Sequence record: NC_079176 | Direction: 5' to 3' (one strand) | Length of the DNA stretch: 51,940 bases | DNA from: Escherichia phage MLP1 | Part shown: piece after piece, positions 3,575-38,365 of the stretch | Layout: each line of letters opens with the position of its first letter | How positions within the stretch are numbered: position 1 is the stretch's first letter | Notes under the pieces: generated by a model | What the model was told of the DNA's origin: nothing | What the model saw: only the letters and a program-made list of their open reading frames with translations | Database searches by the model: none | Program-made: the position numbers and the translations under genes

Positions 3575-4015
3575 ATGCAGATTAAGAACAACGAATCCCG
3601 CAACCTTCAATTCTTCTTCTATAAGAAAGGGAAGTCTGGCAAATCTGAACTGGACTTTATTCATGTTCCTGGCGGCGCAACTGTAGAAATCGACGACGAA
3701 GTTTACAAGTCCCTTACAGAATCCACTACGGAAGTTGAAGAGCTGCGCGAAGAAGTGGTTCAGCTTGATGACGAGAATATCGGTGCTTCTGTTAAGACTG
3801 GTAAAGAAGCTCTGGTCATCAAGGAGTATTACAGCACTGGTAAAACTCGTAAAGTCAACCTGGTTAAAGAAGCAATCAAAGCTGGCTCTCTTTCCATTGT
3901 TGAACGCGTGAAAGTTGGTATGCCTGATATTGATGCTATCCTTGTTAAGAACGGGGTTGACGTCAAGGGTATGCCAGAAGATGTTAAACTGGCTCTCTAC
4001 GATAAGTTGGCATAA
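3575..4015 (+). CDS. hypothetical virion protein (head completion/connector region)
   Basis: 146-aa ORF between capsid and tail genes; start overlaps nothing, next gene starts on its stop (TAATG). Confidence 0.3.
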   Translation: MQIKNNESRNLQFFFYKKGKSGKSELDFIHVPGGATVEIDDEVYKSLTESTTEVEELREEVVQLDDENIGASVKTGKEALVIKEYYSTGKTRKVNLVKEAIKAGSLSIVERVKVGMPDIDAILVKNGVDVKGMPEDVKLALYDKLA

Positions 4016-26548: not shown

Positions 26549-27412
26549 GTAACAGAATACGGAGAAGTATTCCGCATGTCATGTTGAAATCATTCTAGAA
26601 ACATTTCAGCATGTCAACTAAACACACAGTGTTGTAATGATGTGGCAATCATTGAACTCCCTGTCTTTGGCCAGACAAAGTTCCAGCAACCATGTGTGAA
26701 GTAGGAATATTATTCGAAACTGTTCTTCAACCCAAGCATGTTCACTTGTTTCCAATTGAGCTTCATCTCCTATTATCAAGGCCCACCCACAAGCCGGGAG
26801 ATAACTTTGGCAAGACTGGAACTTTTGGACATGCTTCTTTCTTTCAATCAGAATTCGAAAGAAGAGAAGAGGTCGGACAATATGGCAACAGAGCATCGAG
26901 ATTAGTCTCGTAGCCGCCCCGATTTTGAGCAACAAATATTGTGGCAATATTGTCATAGTATGGCATGTAAATATTGCTACAAATTAGCATGTTAGAATGT
27001 GGCAGAATTGTTAGAGGACTAATCACCTCGAAGATACAATTGTCTACCAATCCGGCATGTTAATTTTGTAACAGTATTTGTGCCAATTTCGCATGTAATA
27101 AATGTATCAATATTCACCCAATATTCTTGCAACCCGCATGAATACTGGCTTCCAGCCAAGCGAAGGCTTTATCATCGCATGTAAATATTGTGACAATATT
27201 GGGATAAAACCCTTTATTTATTTCTGTAGTTTTTGTATTAAATGGTCGGTTTTCCGTACCTGTTGCGCCACTTCTTGATGTGCCAAATACATTCAAGGTG
27301 GGAGTAAACCTGTAATTAATGATGCATGTTTGATTGTGACTAAATTCGTCTATTTGGCAGATGAATTGGTTGCAATTAAGCATGTCCATTTATCATTAGT
27401 TGCATGTGAATA

Positions 27413-27429: not shown

Positions 27430-27698
27430 ATTCTGCTGAAATTGTGTGACAGATTTTAGAGAGATTATGTCTCCAAGCTAATCATTGTAGTTTTCGGCAC
27501 TTAATGTGTCACATATATAGCCTGTGAAAAACGTGTGGTTTATTGCTGGATTGCAACGCGCCCACCAGACTAGGAAGTCCATGATGGCGGCACACACAGG
27601 AATACTATATAACTCCCTGATTCTTTAAGGTGGATTAAGGTAATACAAGACCTCCACAATCGTTATGACGGGAGTTTTCTTTTAACTTAGGAGAATAA

Positions 27699-35721: not shown

Positions 35722-36396
35722 ATGTCTTATCATGATGATGACAAAGAGATTGCACTATCAACGTGCAAGCAATGGCTCAATGATAATGATGCCGTCTATC
35801 TTGCCAAGGAAGATGTTATCATTATGTGGGTCCATTTTAATCCAGAATCGAAGCGCGGTGAGTGGCAACGTTACAAGATGAAAGAGGCTTGTCGCATAAT
35901 TAAAGCCACACGCGCTGGCTTCTCTGCTATGAAATATATCAAGCCAGAGATGCTGATGCTTGCTGCACAGGAAGAAGAACGTGCATATAAGCAAGCTGTT
36001 AAATCCCGTTCAACTGTTCCTCCAGAGTTCTTTAATTTGGAGCGCGCTGGTCACTTCAACAATTTAGAAATGTTGACACTGTGCCTGTTGCAAGAATTAG
36101 TTGGAAGAGGACAAAACATTGAAGCTGTTTGCCTTGGGGAACTCATGAAAGAGTTGTTCTTGACAAAGGGCTTTGCTGTACCAAACCGAACTTTACGCTG
36201 GAAATTGTTGCGAGCAGTCGCGCAAGAAGCTGGTGTAGTTGTTCGTGACAGAACCAACCGACTTACCATTACGGGAGTTGGGCGTTTTGTAGCAATCCAG
36301 ATTGAGGGTTATGACGAATCAATCATCACTGAACTCACTGTCGCTGAGACAAAGGATTTGGTAATCAAAACAATCGAACGATTCAATATGTATTGA
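35722..36396 (+). CDS. hypothetical protein (224 aa)
   Basis: ATG directly after upstream stop; track start 35665 overlaps upstream gene. Confidence 0.4.
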   Translation: MSYHDDDKEIALSTCKQWLNDNDAVYLAKEDVIIMWVHFNPESKRGEWQRYKMKEACRIIKATRAGFSAMKYIKPEMLMLAAQEEERAYKQAVKSRSTVPPEFFNLERAGHFNNLEMLTLCLLQELVGRGQNIEAVCLGELMKELFLTKGFAVPNRTLRWKLLRAVAQEAGVVVRDRTNRLTITGVGRFVAIQIEGYDESIITELTVAETKDLVIKTIERFNMY

Positions 36397-36426
36397 GTCG
36401 TTTGTTAAATCAGAGCAGTCCTGACA

Positions 36427-36443
36427 CATTAATTGGATGTGAA
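36427..36443 (+). promoter_or_regulatory. 17-bp motif copy CATTAaTTGGATGTGAA
   Basis: 78 bp upstream of ATG 36521. Confidence 0.4.
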
Positions 36444-36520
36444 AAGAGAAAGGCTCTTTAATTTTATCTACAGTCACGTCACCGTGGCGTGCAAAACTAT
36501 TTAATATAAGGTATATACAA

Positions 36521-36859
36521 ATGGCTAAGATTGTAACCGTAACTCAGTACGAAGCTAACGATGGTTCCCTGTTCCTGAGCGAAGCTGAGTGTAACGCACA
36601 CGATTTTAAACTGGAAAACGGCGCTAAAATTGATGCTGCTGTTGAAGCGTTCGCAAACACCAACAAACTGATTGACCGTTCTCGCTCAATGCAGACCAAT
36701 ACCGCTGCTGCATTCCTGGCATTCTATCTGCCGTGGGTTGAAGCCGGTTGTCCGGAAGTTGAACGTGTTGCGTTCGACACCGTGAAAGAAGTTAAGGTCG
36801 AAGAAGAAGCTGCTGTTGCAGTAGCAGAAGCTGCTGTTGAAGAAGCTCCGGTATTCTAA
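36521..36859 (+). CDS. abundant-looking small protein with acidic C-terminal tail ending in Phe
   Basis: Codon choice like highly expressed E. coli genes (CTG, CGT, GAA, ACC); C-terminus VEEEAAVAVAEAAVEEAPVF; motif plus AAGGT ribosome-binding site upstream. Confidence 0.5.
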   Translation: MAKIVTVTQYEANDGSLFLSEAECNAHDFKLENGAKIDAAVEAFANTNKLIDRSRSMQTNTAAAFLAFYLPWVEAGCPEVERVAFDTVKEVKVEEEAAVAVAEAAVEEAPVF

Positions 36860-37724
36860 ATCGATCTGGCGTGCACTGGAAGTTGTCCGGTGCTGCCTTG
36901 AACCCATTCCCAAGAGTGAGTGGGCTTCAATGAGCATTCTTGTGATTAGAGTTGGGAGGTAGGCCGATGCCCAATCTCGTGGCCCCGACAAGAGTGTTCA
37001 TTGAAGTAGTTTTCTGAGTCTTACGACGGGCCTAAACTGCCTGAAGTTATTGCGACTGTTTTATTCATTTAAAATAAATGCAAACGATTCTGAAATGCGA
37101 GTTGCAGCTTAATTAAATTTAAGTTCTCTCCGTGGTCTTCCAATCCCATGTAACCAAATTTGGCGCATTGTGGCTTCGAGATGTGATTAATAAATCGGAG
37201 CAATAATTAATTTGTATTCTGCGATGTAATGCAGACTTAAGTCCCTCAGTGCGCGTAGGGATGTGACAGAGTACAAACTTAATTATGCAGTTGGATATTT
37301 CCGGAGGACGGACGAGCACACTGGAATGTCTTCAATTGGTTTAGTGTGAGAAGCTATGCCAATGTGGAACGTAACTCCTTGAGGAAGTGCTCCTTTGGAT
37401 TTCCCTCCACACAGGAATCTCAAGCCTGTGGCAGCGACTTCGAAGCTGCACTGTATAACCTAATTCGCCCTAAAGTGAATTGCCCTGAGTATGGAAATAA
37501 ACTGCTCTAACCAATGGTTTCCACAACGGTGGAATAAATTAGGTTGCCTGTTGGTACTTGGGTTCAACACCTGCTTGCACTCGCAAAGTAGTGCCTCGTA
37601 CCTGAGATGAAGTGAGTCGGGACCATCAATCCACGGCAGGCCGAAGATACCAAACAGGCGGCTCACTGATTCTACAAGCCTCGCAGTTCGGGAAAACCTG
37701 CGTTACCAAAACCCACCAAATTTT

Positions 37725-37817
37725 GGACGAGTAGCTCAGAAGGTCTGCTCCAGAGCTTAGTCAGGTAGAGCAATCTGTTCGACAGATGTGTCGTTGGTTC
37801 GAACCCAACCTCGTCCA
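37725..37817 (+). tRNA. tRNA-like gene with insertion; isotype undetermined
   Basis: Perfect 7-bp acceptor pairing GGACGAG/CTCGTCC, canonical T-arm GTTGG-TTCGAAC-CCAAC, UA at positions 8-9, D-arm TAGCTCAG...GGTAGAGC split by about 22 nt; candidate anticodon stem ATCTG/CAGAT encloses only 5 nt. Confidence 0.45.
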
Positions 37818-37843
37818 CCCTTAACAACAAACATGGAGTCCTC

Positions 37844-37984
37844 ATGGATTTTGATGCACTTGATAACTTAGACTTCGGTGCTGCCGAAGAGGCAATTGAA
37901 GAACTTAAGAAGAAGCAGGACGAAGAAGCAATCGTTCCTGGTGCTGGTGATAACGACTGCTCAAGTGGTGCGTGTGCCATCTAA
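37844..37984 (+). CDS. small acidic peptide (46 aa), hypothetical
   Basis: GGAG 5 nt upstream of ATG; below ORF-track cutoff. Confidence 0.3.
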   Translation: MDFDALDNLDFGAAEEAIEELKKKQDEEAIVPGAGDNDCSSGACAI

Positions 37985-37992
37985 GGTGATTC

Positions 37993-38229
37993 ATGCAACA
38001 GCTTAAGGCAATATTTCTTGGCGTCTTGACTGCATTGGGAATTCTATTTGCAGTGTTCCTCAAAGGCAGAAGCTCAGGCAAAGCCGAGGAGCGTCAGGAA
38101 GCCAAAGAGAAGCAATTCGATTCGTTAAAAGAATCTATCGAGATTAAATCGCATGTTCAGAAAGAAGTGTCTAGCAGTTCTGATAGCAATGTCGATAGTG
38201 AGTTGCTCTCAAAGTGGGTTCGTAAGTGA
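37993..38229 (+). CDS. i-spanin (Rz-like) candidate
   Basis: N-terminal transmembrane segment AIFLGVLTALGILFAVFL then charged helical region; overlapped by a lipoprotein ORF. Confidence 0.5.
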   Translation: MQQLKAIFLGVLTALGILFAVFLKGRSSGKAEERQEAKEKQFDSLKESIEIKSHVQKEVSSSSDSNVDSELLSKWVRK

Positions 38230-38365
38230 TTACTGCTTGATTGCACAACCAATCTATTTGGATGTTGCAGAAGTGAAAGTTTTGTCGCGCGAAACCAAAA
38301 CCCAGATTTTAGTCCACAATGAAACGTGGGCACAAAAGTGTTCTAACTTACCCGACAGTGAGTGA
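38153..38365 (+). CDS. o-spanin (Rz1-like outer-membrane lipoprotein) candidate
   Basis: Signal peptide with lipobox-like IVSC; starts inside the i-spanin gene in another frame. Confidence 0.5.
   Translation: MFRKKCLAVLIAMSIVSCSQSGFVSDYCLIAQPIYLDVAEVKVLSRETKTQILVHNETWAQKCSNLPDSE

What the first reader, a model, noticed from the sequence alone, without database searches (positions are those of the whole stretch)
36860..37724. ORF-free 0.9-kb stretch upstream of the tRNA-like gene
There is no + strand ORF of 60 aa or more. The sequence has several stable local hairpins (for example TCTGC-GATGTAAT-GCAGA) and a second GGACGAG copy at 37308. It may encode a structured RNA or be remnants of a tRNA cluster.
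Basis: seen in the sequence. Interest (0 to 1): 0.45.

Follow-up and report, generated by a model that had tools for sequence, protein, structure and literature searches.

The report
Phage tmRNA-like RNA targeting host tmRNA
The gene-free stretch encodes a structured phage RNA that carries its own ten-codon degradation-tag message, like the bacterial ribosome-rescue RNA (tmRNA), but has no tRNA-like part and begins with a sequence complementary to the host tmRNA's tag message; this unannotated RNA family is present in hundreds of enterobacterial phages and may silence or re-programme host ribosome rescue.

Summary
Window 36860-37724 has no + strand ORF of 60 aa or more, and only its + strand folds better than shuffles. 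It is not a tRNA-cluster remnant.

Its core (about 37006-37201) is a tmRNA-like RNA:
- an A-rich leader with the frame-setting A at -4;
- a 10-codon tag frame, GCA...TAA (ANDSEMRVAA*, 37080-37112);
- a P5-like hairpin over the stop codon;
- two H-type pseudoknots.

Across 84 distinct relatives the helices covary, and the tag evolves like coding sequence: 24 peptides, always 10 codons.

The family occurs in 732 phage records, 445 of 5426 E. coli genomes and at least 111 viral contigs, almost always unannotated. ARAGORN and Rfam miss it. I found no paper describing it.

No conserved tRNA-like domain exists. Instead the invariant 5' end, (U)AGUUUUCG...GCGACU..., is collinear antisense to host tmRNA nt 57-106, covering the resume codon and tag codons 1-6.

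Best reading (about 0.5): the RNA docks on host tmRNA, masks the host tag template and offers its own. A plain antisense inhibitor is the main rival. Nothing here shows expression or pairing in cells.

The parts
36428..36443 (+). Phage-RNA-polymerase-type promoter (ATTAATTGGATGTGAA) upstream of the 112-aa ORF. It is the likely source of the transcript that runs into the RNA region.
   Evidence: The motif ATTAGTTGGANGNGGA has 14 matches, all on the + strand, against 4.7 +/- 2.1 in shuffles. phiEcoM-GJ1 annotates the same motif as phage promoters. No sigma-70 promoter and no + strand terminator lies in 36300-38300.
36903..36924 (+). Hairpin H0: CCCAUUC (36903-09), loop CCAAGAGU, GAGUGGG (36918-24). 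The third pair is a G.U. Its role is unexplained. Relaxed ARAGORN uses it as the 'permuted acceptor stem'.
   Evidence: It is conserved in five Chaseviridae-type lineages. Pairs 1, 6 and 7 vary while remaining paired (pairs 1 and 6 by compensatory changes, pair 7 G-C to G.U), the G.U is retained, and the loop is 5-20 nt. ARAGORN at -ps80 reports tmRNAp* at 36820-37203.
36925..37005 (+). Stalk 1: a 14-bp helix (36925-38 with 36992-37005) carrying a variable insert. Here the insert is an H-type pseudoknot: UUGGG..GGCC..CCCAA..GGCC.
   Evidence: The helix shows compensatory changes in L043 and L108. The insert differs even between this phage and phiEcoM-GJ1. It appears in the MFE fold.
37006..37014 (+). 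Antisense arm 1, GUAGUUUUC. It is complementary to host tmRNA nt 99-107 (GAAAACUAC, tag codons 4-6).
   Evidence: The motif (U)AGUUUUCG is nearly invariant across the family and lies about 7 nt downstream of predicted sigma-70 -10 elements in other phages. It pairs better with the host message than with the phage's own in 55 of 55 sequences.
37015..37049 (+). Lineage-specific insert between the two arms. It is absent from most family members.
   Evidence: Alignment of the 5' domains.
37050..37062 (+). Antisense arm 2, UUGCGACUGUUUU. It is complementary to host tmRNA nt 81-93 (AAAAUAGUCGCAA), which hold U85, A86, the -1 triplet and the resume codon. It makes 12 Watson-Crick pairs and 1 G.U.
   Evidence: The same arm is present in all lineages.
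37063..37079 (+). A/U-rich leader before the resume codon, with U at -5 (37075) and A at -4 (37076). In the free RNA it can pair with the U-run of arm 2 (37058-63 with 37070-75).
   Evidence: A at -4 is invariant and U at -5 is at least 90% conserved in 84 sequences. A86 at -4 is the main frame determinant in E. coli tmRNA (PMC2481249). The hairpin appears in the MFE fold.
37080..37112 (+). Tag reading frame: GCA AAC GAU UCU GAA AUG CGA GUU GCA GCU UAA = ANDSEMRVAA*.
   Evidence: Rfam tmRNA models align here below threshold. ARAGORN at -ps80 reads the same tag. The stop is at codon 11 in 84 of 84 sequences. There are 24 peptides, and third-position changes number 1516 against 446 and 184.
37099..37128 (+). 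P5-like hairpin: GAG 37099-101 with CUC 37126-28, and CUUAA 37108-12 with UUAAG 37119-23. The stop codon lies in its upper stem.
   Evidence: Read from the sequence. The equivalent helices in the main lineages are 73-88% paired with compensatory changes (helices 1-2).
37131..37163 (+). Pseudoknot PK2. Stem 1 is CGUGG 37131-35 with CCAUG 37146-50. Stem 2 is CCAA 37140-43 with UUGG 37160-63.
   Evidence: The stems are 99.0% and 99.7% paired in 84 sequences. Six of nine pairs have changes on both sides, for example CG 49 / UA 35 and GC 61 / AU 23.
37166..37201 (+). Pseudoknot PK3. Stem 1 is CAUU 37166-69 with GAUG 37180-83. Stem 2 is GCUUCGA 37173-79 with UCGGAGC 37195-201. Loop 3 is UGAUUAAUAAA.
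   Evidence: Stem 1 is 100% paired, with CG 59 / UA 14 / GC 11 at one pair. Stem 2 is 86.6% paired despite a length polymorphism.
37202..37288 (+).
   Evidence: A stalk directly after PK3 is present in all lineages, with different sequences and hypervariable or absent inserts. It appears in the MFE fold.
37304..37408 (+). Stalk 3: GGAGG..GAGCAC (37304-19) pairs with GUGCUC..CCUCC (37387-408). It contains the 'second GGACGAG' (37310-16).
   Evidence: Read from the sequence..
37600..37715 (+). Conserved module before the tRNA-like gene: helix GUGAGUC 37612-18 with GGCUCAC 37660-66, hairpin GGGA-CCAUCAA-UCC, and hairpin CGCAG..CUGCG. Function unknown.
   Evidence: It is conserved in the window, phiEcoM-GJ1, L043 and L108. 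L108 shows a compensatory helix (AUUGGC/GCCAAU).
37725..37820 (+). tRNA-Arg(UCG)-like gene with a 22-nt insertion in the D arm. It lies outside the finding but belongs to the same RNA array.
   Evidence: Rfam tRNA scores 25.6 bits here and 41.8 bits in phiEcoM-GJ1. The GJ1 annotation reads 'tRNA-Arg, may contain an intron'. The acceptor and T arm are intact.

Best explanation
The stretch is an array of RNA genes. It is probably transcribed from the phage promoter at 36428, through the 112-aa ORF, into the RNA region.

Its conserved core (about 37006-37201) belongs to a widespread, undescribed family of phage RNAs. These RNAs resemble a tmRNA with the tRNA-like domain removed and an anti-tmRNA arm added.

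Shown by computation:
- The RNA has a tmRNA-type resume context, a translated-looking 10-codon tag frame, a P5-like hairpin and two covarying pseudoknots.
- It has no conserved acceptor stem, T arm or CCA.
- Its 5' domain is collinear antisense to the host tmRNA segment that holds the 3' part of PK1, the A-rich linker (U85, A86), the resume codon and tag codons 1-6.

Inferred mechanism:
1. During lytic growth the phage RNA docks on host tmRNA through these arms.
2. The duplex hides the host resume codon, as synthetic anti-ssrA oligonucleotides do.
3. The arms lie 5' of the phage's own leader and tag frame, so that frame emerges next to host PK1, 12-17 nt from the duplex.
4. Ribosomes rescued by the host's alanyl-TLD and SmpB would then resume on the phage template and add a phage-specified tag (here AANDSEMRVAA) instead of AANDENYALAA.
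5. In the free RNA the U-run of arm 2 can pair with the RNA's own A-rich leader, so docking may also unmask the phage template.
For: tmRNA-like anatomy:
- Sub-threshold tmRNA hits fall on the tag here and at the same place in Erwinia phage Y2, Klebsiella phage Magnus and Escherichia phage PGN829.1.
- ARAGORN at 80% thresholds reads the tag as ANDSEMRVAA*.
- A at -4 is invariant. The equivalent A86 is the key frame determinant in E. coli (PMC2481249).

Structure:
- 91.4% of cells pair, against 33-47% when partners are slid.
- 252 cells have changes on both sides, against 12-52 slid and 86.8 +/- 8.6 in shuffles (0 of 500 shuffles reach it).

Coding signature:
- All 84 sequences have exactly 10 codons before the stop in this frame, while the other frames vary.
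- There are 24 different peptides, all A-N/K-D/E...A/V-A.
- Third-position changes number 1516, against 446 and 184 at positions 1 and 2.

Antisense 5' domain:
- The reverse complement of the 5' domain aligns to E. coli ssrA nt about 53-106 in 57 of 60 distinct sequences.
- Median z is 5.1 against dinucleotide shuffles, and 82% exceed all 200 shuffles.
- The sense-orientation and reversed-target controls give 21 and 28, against 41.5 observed.
- RNAduplex gives -42.9 against -28.7 +/- 3.0 kcal/mol for L044, which forms 36 bp over 44 nt.
- Arm 1 pairs better with the host message than with the phage's own in 55 of 55 sequences.
- In the window the arms are 9 bp (37006-14 with nt 99-107) and 13 bp (37050-62 with nt 81-93).

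Target and 5' end:
- The target site is exact in at least 120 species of Gamma- and Betaproteobacteria, including Yersinia, Aeromonas and Pectobacterium. This would explain why the arm does not vary.
- Sigma-70 promoters in Drexler-like and Felix O1-like phages place the RNA's 5' end at the arm.

Precedent:
- Antisense oligonucleotides to tmRNA block trans-translation in vitro (PMC7038980, PMC3384345).
- A helix around the resume codon inactivates tmRNA.
Against: - There are no expression, processing or interaction data for any family member.
- The window's own arms are short and interrupted by a 35-nt insert. Its RNAduplex z is only -2.1 and its gapped alignment is not significant (z = 0.5).
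- Helices of 13 bp or more with G.U allowed occur 37 times by chance on the window's + strand. The case therefore rests on the family, not on this copy alone.
- The target is invariant among hosts, so phage-host covariation could not be tested.
- The long forms would have to unfold host PK1.
- No ribosome is known to resume on a template held to tmRNA only by base pairing.
- This phage's host is not known; its relatives infect Yersinia and E. coli.
- The conserved G.U hairpin H0, the hypervariable stalks and the conserved 3' module are not explained.
Confidence: 0.5

Rival explanations
1. Pure anti-tmRNA antisense RNA. The arms bind host tmRNA and only block it, or trigger its cleavage by RNase III. 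The tag-like frame and pseudoknots serve stability, protein binding or decoy roles and are never translated.
For: The antisense complementarity and the in-vitro precedent of anti-ssrA oligonucleotides need nothing more. tmRNA tagging can restrict phage and plasmid propagation in some settings (PMC6207430).
Against: It does not explain why the tag frame always has exactly 10 codons, why it keeps the AND.../...AA character across 24 peptides with mostly third-position change, why A at -4 is invariant, or why two tmRNA-style pseudoknots are kept by covariation.
Confidence: 0.25
2. A self-sufficient, highly divergent two-piece (permuted) tmRNA. A cryptic tRNA-like domain would be formed by hairpin H0 with its G.U at the third pair, by a stalk insert, or by the downstream tRNA-like gene, and would be charged and used in cis.
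For: ARAGORN at 80% thresholds reports 'tmRNAp*' at 36820-37203 using H0. H0 keeps its G.U in five lineages while other pairs covary. Stalk inserts in some phages contain T-arm-like hairpins. The RNA sits in or beside tRNA arrays.
Against: - At that threshold ARAGORN makes 97 calls in 26 loci, borrowing any nearby T arm.
- H0 has no adjoining T arm, and CCA follows it only in this window.
- Promoter-type and most lambdoid copies have nothing upstream and no T arm plus CCA within -400 to +1000 nt.
- The stalk inserts are hypervariable or absent.
- The tRNA-like gene has A3-U70.
Confidence: 0.1
3. A cis-acting leader or processing platform for the downstream tRNA and lysis genes, with the tmRNA resemblance incidental.
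For: The element lies between the antiterminator Q and the holin gene in lambdoid prophages. It lies upstream of the spanin genes here. It lies upstream of or inside tRNA arrays elsewhere.
Against: The downstream neighbours differ (lysis genes, tRNAs, SPFH-domain gene in P1) while the core is constant. A leader role explains neither the coding signature nor the 36-bp collinear complementarity to ssrA.
Confidence: 0.08
4. A non-functional relic of a captured ssrA or tRNA cluster, or unrecognised small-protein genes.
For: Weak tRNA and tmRNA similarities. phiEcoM-GJ1 annotates a hypothetical gp30 in the region.
Against: The region is conserved across Chaseviridae, Ackermannviridae, Schitoviridae, Felix O1-like, Drexler-like, lambdoid and P1-like phages, with compensatory changes. 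No ORF is conserved, and none convincingly matches a PHROG family (one marginal hit, E = 0.008).
Confidence: 0.04

Closest known systems
One-piece tmRNA (SsrA, Rfam RF00023)
   Same: Both have an A-rich single-stranded leader with A at -4, a resume codon GCA, a tag of the AND...AA type with the same length as in E. coli (10 codons), the stop codon inside a P5-like hairpin, and H-type pseudoknots downstream.
   Different: The phage RNA has no acceptor stem with G3:U70, no T arm and no CCA end. PK1 is replaced by simple hairpins. It has two downstream pseudoknots instead of three. Its 5' domain is antisense to tmRNA itself. Curated tools do not detect it.
Two-piece (circularly permuted) tmRNA of Alpha- and Betaproteobacteria and cyanobacteria (RF01849, RF01850, RF04321)
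   Same: A coding RNA works together with a separate RNA that carries the aminoacylated end, and the two are held together by base pairing. The best (sub-threshold) Rfam hits are to these models.
   Different: In known two-piece tmRNAs both pieces come from one gene, and the coding piece still contains the 5' acceptor strand. Here the proposed partner is the complete host tmRNA, and the pairing is to its message region rather than to P1/P2.
Phage-encoded tmRNAs (mycobacteriophages Bxz1-like, Bacillus phage G) and the TLD-only RNA of mycobacteriophage DS6A (PMC4131195)
   Same: They are phage genes that act on trans-translation. DS6A shows that phages can carry a partial tmRNA.
   Different: Those have the tRNA-like domain, and DS6A has little else. 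This family is the converse: message and pseudoknots without the tRNA-like domain. The 2014 census did not find it, although phiEcoM-GJ1 was already public.
Synthetic anti-ssrA (anti-tmRNA) oligonucleotides used in ribosome display and cell-free systems
   Same: They are complementary to the same tmRNA segment (resume codon and tag codons), which is known to shut off tagging in vitro (PMC7038980, PMC3384345).
   Different: They are artificial DNA oligonucleotides with no template of their own.
Large structured phage RNAs found next to tRNA genes (GOLLD, ROOL)
   Same: They are long ORF-free structured RNAs in phage genomes near tRNA genes. This was my first guess.
   Different: Rfam gave no match to either family at any threshold. 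They have no tag frame and no antisense arm.

Membership tests
tmRNA (one-piece, RF00023) | tRNA-like domain: 7-bp acceptor stem with G3:U70, T arm, and a 3' CCA or a site where CCA can be added | tested here: not met
   ARAGORN at default settings finds nothing in the window or in 10 of 11 related loci beyond ordinary tRNAs. A custom scan for T arm plus acceptor finds only the A3-U70 tRNA-like gene in the window. Most family members have no T arm plus CCA within -400 to +1000 nt.
tmRNA (one-piece, RF00023) | Tag reading frame that resumes at an Ala codon, with a conserved upstream determinant (A at -4) and no start codon or Shine-Dalgarno sequence | tested here: met
   GCA at 37080 and A at 37076. 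The frame is 10 codons in 84 of 84 sequences with a coding-type substitution pattern. In the main type an in-frame UAG lies 8 codons upstream and there is no AUG, GUG or UUG in between.
tmRNA (one-piece, RF00023) | Stop codon in helix 5, and pseudoknots downstream of the tag | tested here: met
   The P5-like hairpin and two H-type pseudoknots are supported by covariation. There are two pseudoknots rather than three, and no PK1.
tmRNA (one-piece, RF00023) | Score above the curated Rfam threshold, or an ARAGORN call | tested here: not met
   No hit at gathering thresholds. The best scores are 22.5 bits against a cut-off of 47 (RF04321) and 16.1 against 50 (RF01849).
Two-piece / permuted tmRNA | Acceptor piece (T arm, 3' acceptor strand, CCA) encoded upstream of the coding piece, which begins with the 5' acceptor strand | tested here: inconclusive
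   Only the Chaseviridae-type copies have an upstream hairpin (H0) in the permuted order with a conserved G.U at pair 3. It has no adjoining T arm and CCA is not conserved. Copies with their own promoter have no upstream RNA at all. The relaxed ARAGORN call is unreliable.
Trans-acting antisense RNA against a host RNA | Extended complementarity to the target, above chance and conserved | tested here: met
   Collinear complementarity to ssrA nt 53-106 in 57 of 60 distinct sequences, with median z 5.1 and negative controls. The host is favoured over the phage's own message in 55 of 55. The target is conserved in at least 120 species.
Trans-acting antisense RNA against a host RNA | Physical pairing with the target and an effect on it in cells | not testable with these tools
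   Needs RIL-seq or CLASH, gel-shift assays, Northern blots and tagging assays.
GOLLD / ROOL large phage RNAs | Match to the family covariance model | tested here: not met
   No match, even at E-value up to 10 over 36700-37950.
tRNA gene cluster (remnants) | Recognisable cloverleaf fragments or pseudo-tRNAs within 36860-37724 | tested here: not met
   Within this range Rfam reports no tRNA hit at E-value up to 10, and ARAGORN finds none. At -ps80 ARAGORN gives only implausible calls with 105-217-nt 'introns'.

The most novel reading that the evidence does not exclude
Many enterobacterial phages (Chaseviridae, Ackermannviridae, Schitoviridae, Felix O1-like, Drexler-like, lambdoid and P1-like) encode a parasite of the host tmRNA. 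This RNA has no tRNA-like domain. It base-pairs with the host tmRNA's message region, masks the host resume codon and presents its own template. The host's alanyl-tmRNA and SmpB would then rescue ribosomes, but the rescued proteins would receive a phage-chosen tag. That would be a non-covalent, inter-genomic two-piece tmRNA, a mechanism not described before.
Probability: 0.45. Interest if true: 0.95.

Novelty: new variant of a known kind. Interest (0 to 1): 0.88.

Why it matters
- Trans-translation is close to universal in bacteria and is a drug target. A natural RNA that silences or re-templates tmRNA would be a new way for a virus to take over host quality control.
- It would bear on why some phages depend on ssrA, and it could serve as a tool for programmable C-terminal tagging.
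- The family is abundant: 732 of 50,697 phage records, 8% of complete E. coli genomes, and many phage-plasmids. It includes classic phages (P1, Vi01, Felix O1-like and N4-like phages).
- It is almost never annotated, or it is covered by spurious small ORFs. Recognising it corrects many genome annotations.
- It gives experimenters a defined 200-nt target with clear, cheap tests.

Tried and rejected
1. GOLLD/ROOL-type large phage RNA. This was my first guess. Rfam gave no match to either family at any threshold.
2. A complete tmRNA. ARAGORN at default settings, a custom scan for T arm plus acceptor plus CCA, and inspection of stalk inserts found no conserved tRNA-like domain. Relaxed ARAGORN is too permissive to use, with 97 calls in 26 loci.
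3. Sequence homology to E. coli ssrA in the sense orientation. Pairwise local alignment is not above shuffles outside the tag.
4. A long-range 'P2-like' closure between the stalk strands that flank the core. This is possible in lambdoid copies, where the stalks repeat. It is impossible in the window, where stalks 1 and 2 share no sequence (reading).
5. A second antisense region in the 3' part. No consistent signal across 21 loci. Only L108 has one, against tmRNA nt 237-253.
6. Conventional translation of the tag or of the overlapping AUG frame. The AUG/GUG/CUG at -2 is not conserved as a start, and that frame's length varies from 4 to 31 codons.
7. Phage-host covariation of the arms. This could not be tested because the target is invariant. 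The 'Acinetobacter' and Aeromonas phage copies carry the same arms.
8. Protein-coding potential of ORFs in the region. No convincing PHROG match; the only hit is marginal (E = 0.008).
9. Literature. No paper among those searched mentions these tag peptides, a TLD-less phage tmRNA or a natural anti-tmRNA RNA. The prophage Pas/STnc100 sRNAs are different, shorter Hfq-type RNAs. The P1 genome paper could not be read.
Full report
**The observation.** The window is a phiEcoM-GJ1-like myophage (Chaseviridae). The best matches are Yersinia phages PYps23T and PYps16N and several Escherichia phages, at 87-97% identity over the region.

No + strand ORF of 60 aa or more lies between the 112-aa ORF (36521-36859, PHROG 17419, function unknown) and the spanin genes (37993-38365). 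The longest is 54 aa. No ORF on either strand convincingly matches a PHROG family; the only hit is marginal (E = 0.008).

The quoted hairpin is at 37218-37235.

As RNA, the + strand folds at -278.6 kcal/mol against -247.3 +/- 9.9 for shuffles (z = -3.2). The - strand gives z = -0.9.

ARAGORN calls no tRNA or tmRNA in the window, and Rfam finds nothing at curated thresholds.

**The lead.** At relaxed E-values Rfam aligned two permuted-tmRNA models, below threshold, to 37005-37167. The alignment rested on AAUAAAUGCAAACGAU...GCAGCUUAA.

Read as codons, this is GCA AAC GAU UCU GAA AUG CGA GUU GCA GCU UAA, or ANDSEMRVAA*. That is a tmRNA-type tag of the same length as the E. coli tag.

Across more distant phages the best-conserved part of the region is this segment plus about 90 nt downstream.

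Erwinia phage Y2, Klebsiella phage Magnus (Ackermannviridae) and Escherichia phage PGN829.1 (Schitoviridae) have the same element, with tags ANDNEMRAAA, ANDDVVLMAA and ANDDVILMAA. They give the same weak Rfam hits and no ARAGORN call.

**Distribution and context.** I counted the family in three collections:
Of the loci then held, 111 carried the whole core.
- A 186-nt query hit 732 of 50,697 phage records. These include Vi01-like, Felix O1-like, N4-like and Drexler-like phages, lambdoid HK633, P1 and D6. Almost all hits have no annotated feature, or a small 'hypothetical protein' laid over them.
- A 358-nt prophage version is in 445 of 5426 complete E. coli genomes, with 220 chromosomal and 264 plasmid places.

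The contexts differ:
- In a P22-like prophage the element lies between the antiterminator Q gene and the holin gene.
- In phages of 46-48 kb it stands at the head of a small tRNA operon with its own TTGACA-17-TAGATT promoter.
- In Felix O1-like phages it sits inside the tRNA cluster, again behind its own sigma-70 promoter.
- In P1 it follows the dmt terminator and precedes tRNA-Asn and tRNA-Thr.
- Here it lies between a phage-polymerase promoter plus small ORF and a tRNA-like gene plus spanin genes.

In both independent promoter-bearing contexts the predicted start site falls at (U)AGUUUUCG. That motif is also the first base after stalk 1 in the window.

**Structure.** I aligned 84 distinct sequences and counted pairs for a structure I wrote by hand, consisting of P5, PK2 and PK3.
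- 91.4% of cells pair, against 33-47% when the 3' partners are slid by 1-3 columns.
- 18 of 25 pairs have changes on both sides.
- 252 cells have changes on both sides, against 12-52 for the slid versions and 86.8 +/- 8.6 for shuffles. None of 500 shuffles reaches the observed value.
- PK2 is 99-100% paired, with pair types such as CG 49 / UA 35, GC 45 / AU 30 / GU 9 and GC 61 / AU 23.
- PK3 stem 1 is 100% paired, with CG 59 / UA 14 / GC 11 at one pair.

A second sequence subtype (P1, SE131, KpCHEMY26, phiEa2809) keeps the same architecture with different sequences.

In window coordinates:
- P5 is 37099-101/37126-28 and 37108-12/37119-23.
- PK2 is 37131-35/37146-50 and 37140-43/37160-63.
- PK3 is 37166-69/37180-83 and 37173-79/37195-201.

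**The tag behaves like coding sequence.** In the tag frame all 84 sequences have exactly 10 codons before the stop. In the other two frames the first stop falls anywhere from codon 1 to 31.

The 41 distinct nucleotide versions encode 24 peptides, all of the form A-N(K)-D/E-x-x-x-x-x-A/V-A.

Single-base codon differences fall 1516 times on position 3, against 446 and 184 on positions 1 and 2. Codon 10 is GCN with all four third bases.

A at -4 is invariant and U at -5 nearly so. In E. coli tmRNA, A86 at -4 is the main determinant of the resume frame (PMC2481249).

There is no conserved start codon. In the main type an in-frame UAG lies eight codons upstream.

**No tRNA-like domain.** Several independent checks agree.
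- A scan of the window for T arms followed by an acceptor strand finds only the tRNA-like gene at 37725-37820, which has A3-U70.
- Around 100-odd family members, most lambdoid copies have no T arm plus CCA within -400 to +1000 nt. Where one is present it is usually an ordinary tRNA or a tRNA-like element of the array.
- In the compact Mooglevirus copy the whole RNA lies between a promoter and the next tRNA, and has no acceptor-like pairing of its ends.
- With thresholds lowered to 80%, ARAGORN does report a permuted tmRNA with the right tag (36820-37203). At that setting it makes 97 calls in 26 loci and borrows whatever T arm is near.

The hairpin it uses here, H0 (36903-24), is nonetheless conserved in five Chaseviridae-type lineages. 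Pairs 1, 6 and 7 vary while staying paired, and the third pair is a fixed G.U. I cannot explain this, and it keeps the cryptic-TLD rival alive at about 0.1.

**The 5' domain is antisense to host tmRNA.** I first folded 13 diverse 5' domains against E. coli ssrA (fetched). In every case the optimum placed the phage 5' end on ssrA nt 97-106 and continued collinearly upstream.

For the Drexler-like copy L044 the pairing is:
- UAGUUUUCGU with A97-A106 (tag codons 3-6);
- GCGACU with A86-C91 (A86, the -1 triplet, and GC of the resume codon);
- UUGCGG with C75-A80;
- UUUUUA with U68-A73;
- CUGACC with G57-G62.

This gives 36 bp over 44 nt, at -42.9 kcal/mol against -28.7 +/- 3.0 for shuffles.

A simpler test gave the same answer. 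I locally aligned the reverse complement of each of 60 distinct 5' domains to ssrA.
- 57 land on nt 50-106.
- Median z is 5.1 against dinucleotide shuffles, and 82% beat all 200 shuffles.
- The median score is 41.5, against 21 for the sense orientation and 28 for a reversed target.

The arm is not complementary to the phage's own tag codons. It pairs better with the host message than with its own in 55 of 55 cases, with median -11.9 against -5.4 kcal/mol.

The target, AAUAGUCGCAAACGACGAAANCUAC, is exact in at least 120 species of Gamma- and some Betaproteobacteria, including Yersinia, Aeromonas, Pectobacterium, Pantoea and Serratia. This explains why the arm does not vary among phages of different hosts. 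It also means host covariation cannot be tested.

**The window copy.** Here the arms are GUAGUUUUC (37006-14, pairing nt 99-107) and UUGCGACUGUUUU (37050-62, pairing nt 81-93). A lineage-specific 35-nt insert separates them.

Taken alone this copy is weak: z = -2.1 and not significant. Helices of this size are not rare by chance when G.U pairs are allowed. Its reading rests on the family.

**Mechanism.** What is shown is an RNA that combines a tmRNA-style template with an anti-tmRNA arm and has no means of being aminoacylated. The rest is inference.

Antisense oligonucleotides to this part of tmRNA abolish tagging in vitro (PMC7038980, PMC3384345). A helix around the resume codon inactivates tmRNA. 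Silencing of the host template is therefore the minimal expected effect.

The translated-looking tag, the invariant A at -4 and the conserved pseudoknots argue for more than silencing. Because the arms lie 5' of the phage leader, the phage resume codon would emerge beside host PK1. It would sit 12 nt from the last pair in the long forms and 17 nt here, compared with 11 nt in native tmRNA. A ribosome moving 3' along the phage template would not have to unwind the tether.

I therefore favour docking plus template substitution (about 0.5) over plain inhibition (about 0.25).

The phage tags keep the AND start but change the rest (...LMAA, ...LAVA, ...RVAA). That could alter recognition by SspB or ClpXP. 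I did not test this.

**The rest of the 0.9 kb.** The core is flanked by long 'stalk' helices with variable inserts: 36925-37005, 37202-37288 and 37304-37408. The same theme appears in other phages as CACAACAGGUAAGAGCAUU[insert]AGUGCUCUUUCCGUUGUG.

A module at 37600-37715 is conserved among Chaseviridae-type phages and precedes the tRNA-Arg(UCG)-like gene, whose D arm carries a 22-nt insertion. I have no function for these parts. The stalks may be processing sites.

**Comparison with what is known, and novelty.** The RNA fails the defining test for tmRNA membership, the tRNA-like domain, while sharing the message-side anatomy. It resembles two-piece tmRNAs only in working, presumably, as a base-paired pair of RNAs.

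The 2014 tmRNA census lists phage ssrA only in mycobacteriophages and Bacillus phage G, plus a TLD-only RNA in DS6A (PMC4131195). This family is the converse of DS6A.

Full-text searches for the tag peptides, 'tmRNA-like' with phage, natural anti-tmRNA RNAs and related terms found nothing relevant. Subscription journals are largely outside that library, so prior description cannot be excluded.

I rate it a new variant of a known kind, a tmRNA-derived RNA. If the proposed mechanism is confirmed, that mechanism would be new in kind.

Noticed in passing
window 27486-27496 (also 27225-27236): TGTAGTTTTCG lies just downstream of the phage promoter at 27395-27410, in an ORF-poor early region. It is also complementary to tmRNA nt 98-108. 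About 269 helices of 11 bp or more arise by chance in the window, so this may be coincidence.
   Followed up: partly
L129 (Escherichia phage AYO145A) about 1662-1745: An unannotated tRNA-like element without a D arm lies directly after the tag RNA. It has acceptor CGGGGCG/CGCCUCG (G3:U70), A73, CCA and a UCU (Arg) anticodon loop, so it may be an alanine-accepting tRNA mimic. The Mooglevirus relative has a normal tRNA-Arg(UCU) at that place.
   Followed up: no
L003 (Klebsiella phage Magnus) 3805-4019; L126 (P1) about 3770-3810: The Rfam sRNA STnc100 (52.9 bits) lies at the end of the same non-coding array in Magnus. A similar 3' end (CACCGGGAGGCACCCGGCACC plus a T-run) closes the P1 array.
   Followed up: no
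L005, L008, L011, L013, L025, L039, L044, L054, L086, L091, L112, L126 (flanks of the core): A repeated 'stalk' module, CACAACAGGUAAGAGCAUU[insert]AGUGCUCUUUCCGUUGUG, has compensatory changes in the stem. Its inserts are hypervariable (pseudoknots, T-arm-like hairpins and others) and differ between otherwise near-identical phages, so they look cassette-like.
   Followed up: partly
relatives of window 36860-37830 (4HA13, Mangalitsa, flopper): In relatives the region is a hot spot for insertions. 4HA13 has an HNH endonuclease gene there, Mangalitsa a 'superinfection immunity' gene, and flopper an insert of about 200 nt.
   Followed up: no
L108 (IMG/VR Chaseviridae-like contig), about 470-530 nt after its tag: UAACAAACUGCCUGAG, in the conserved module before the tRNA-like gene, is antisense to E. 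coli tmRNA nt 237-253 (score 47, z = 7.5). The window's homologous module does not show this clearly.
   Followed up: partly
window, + strand: 23957, 26277, 26533, 27395, 30160, 34464, 36096, 36428: The phage-polymerase promoter motif ATTAGTTGGATGTGAA recurs on the + strand only (14 matches against 4.7 expected). This maps the early and middle transcription units of this phage.
   Followed up: partly
window 36903-36924 and the orthologous hairpins in L001, L043, L108, L135: Hairpin H0 keeps a G.U at its third pair while other pairs covary and the loop varies from 5 to 20 nt. It looks like an acceptor stem in the permuted order but has no T arm. Its function is unknown.
   Followed up: partly
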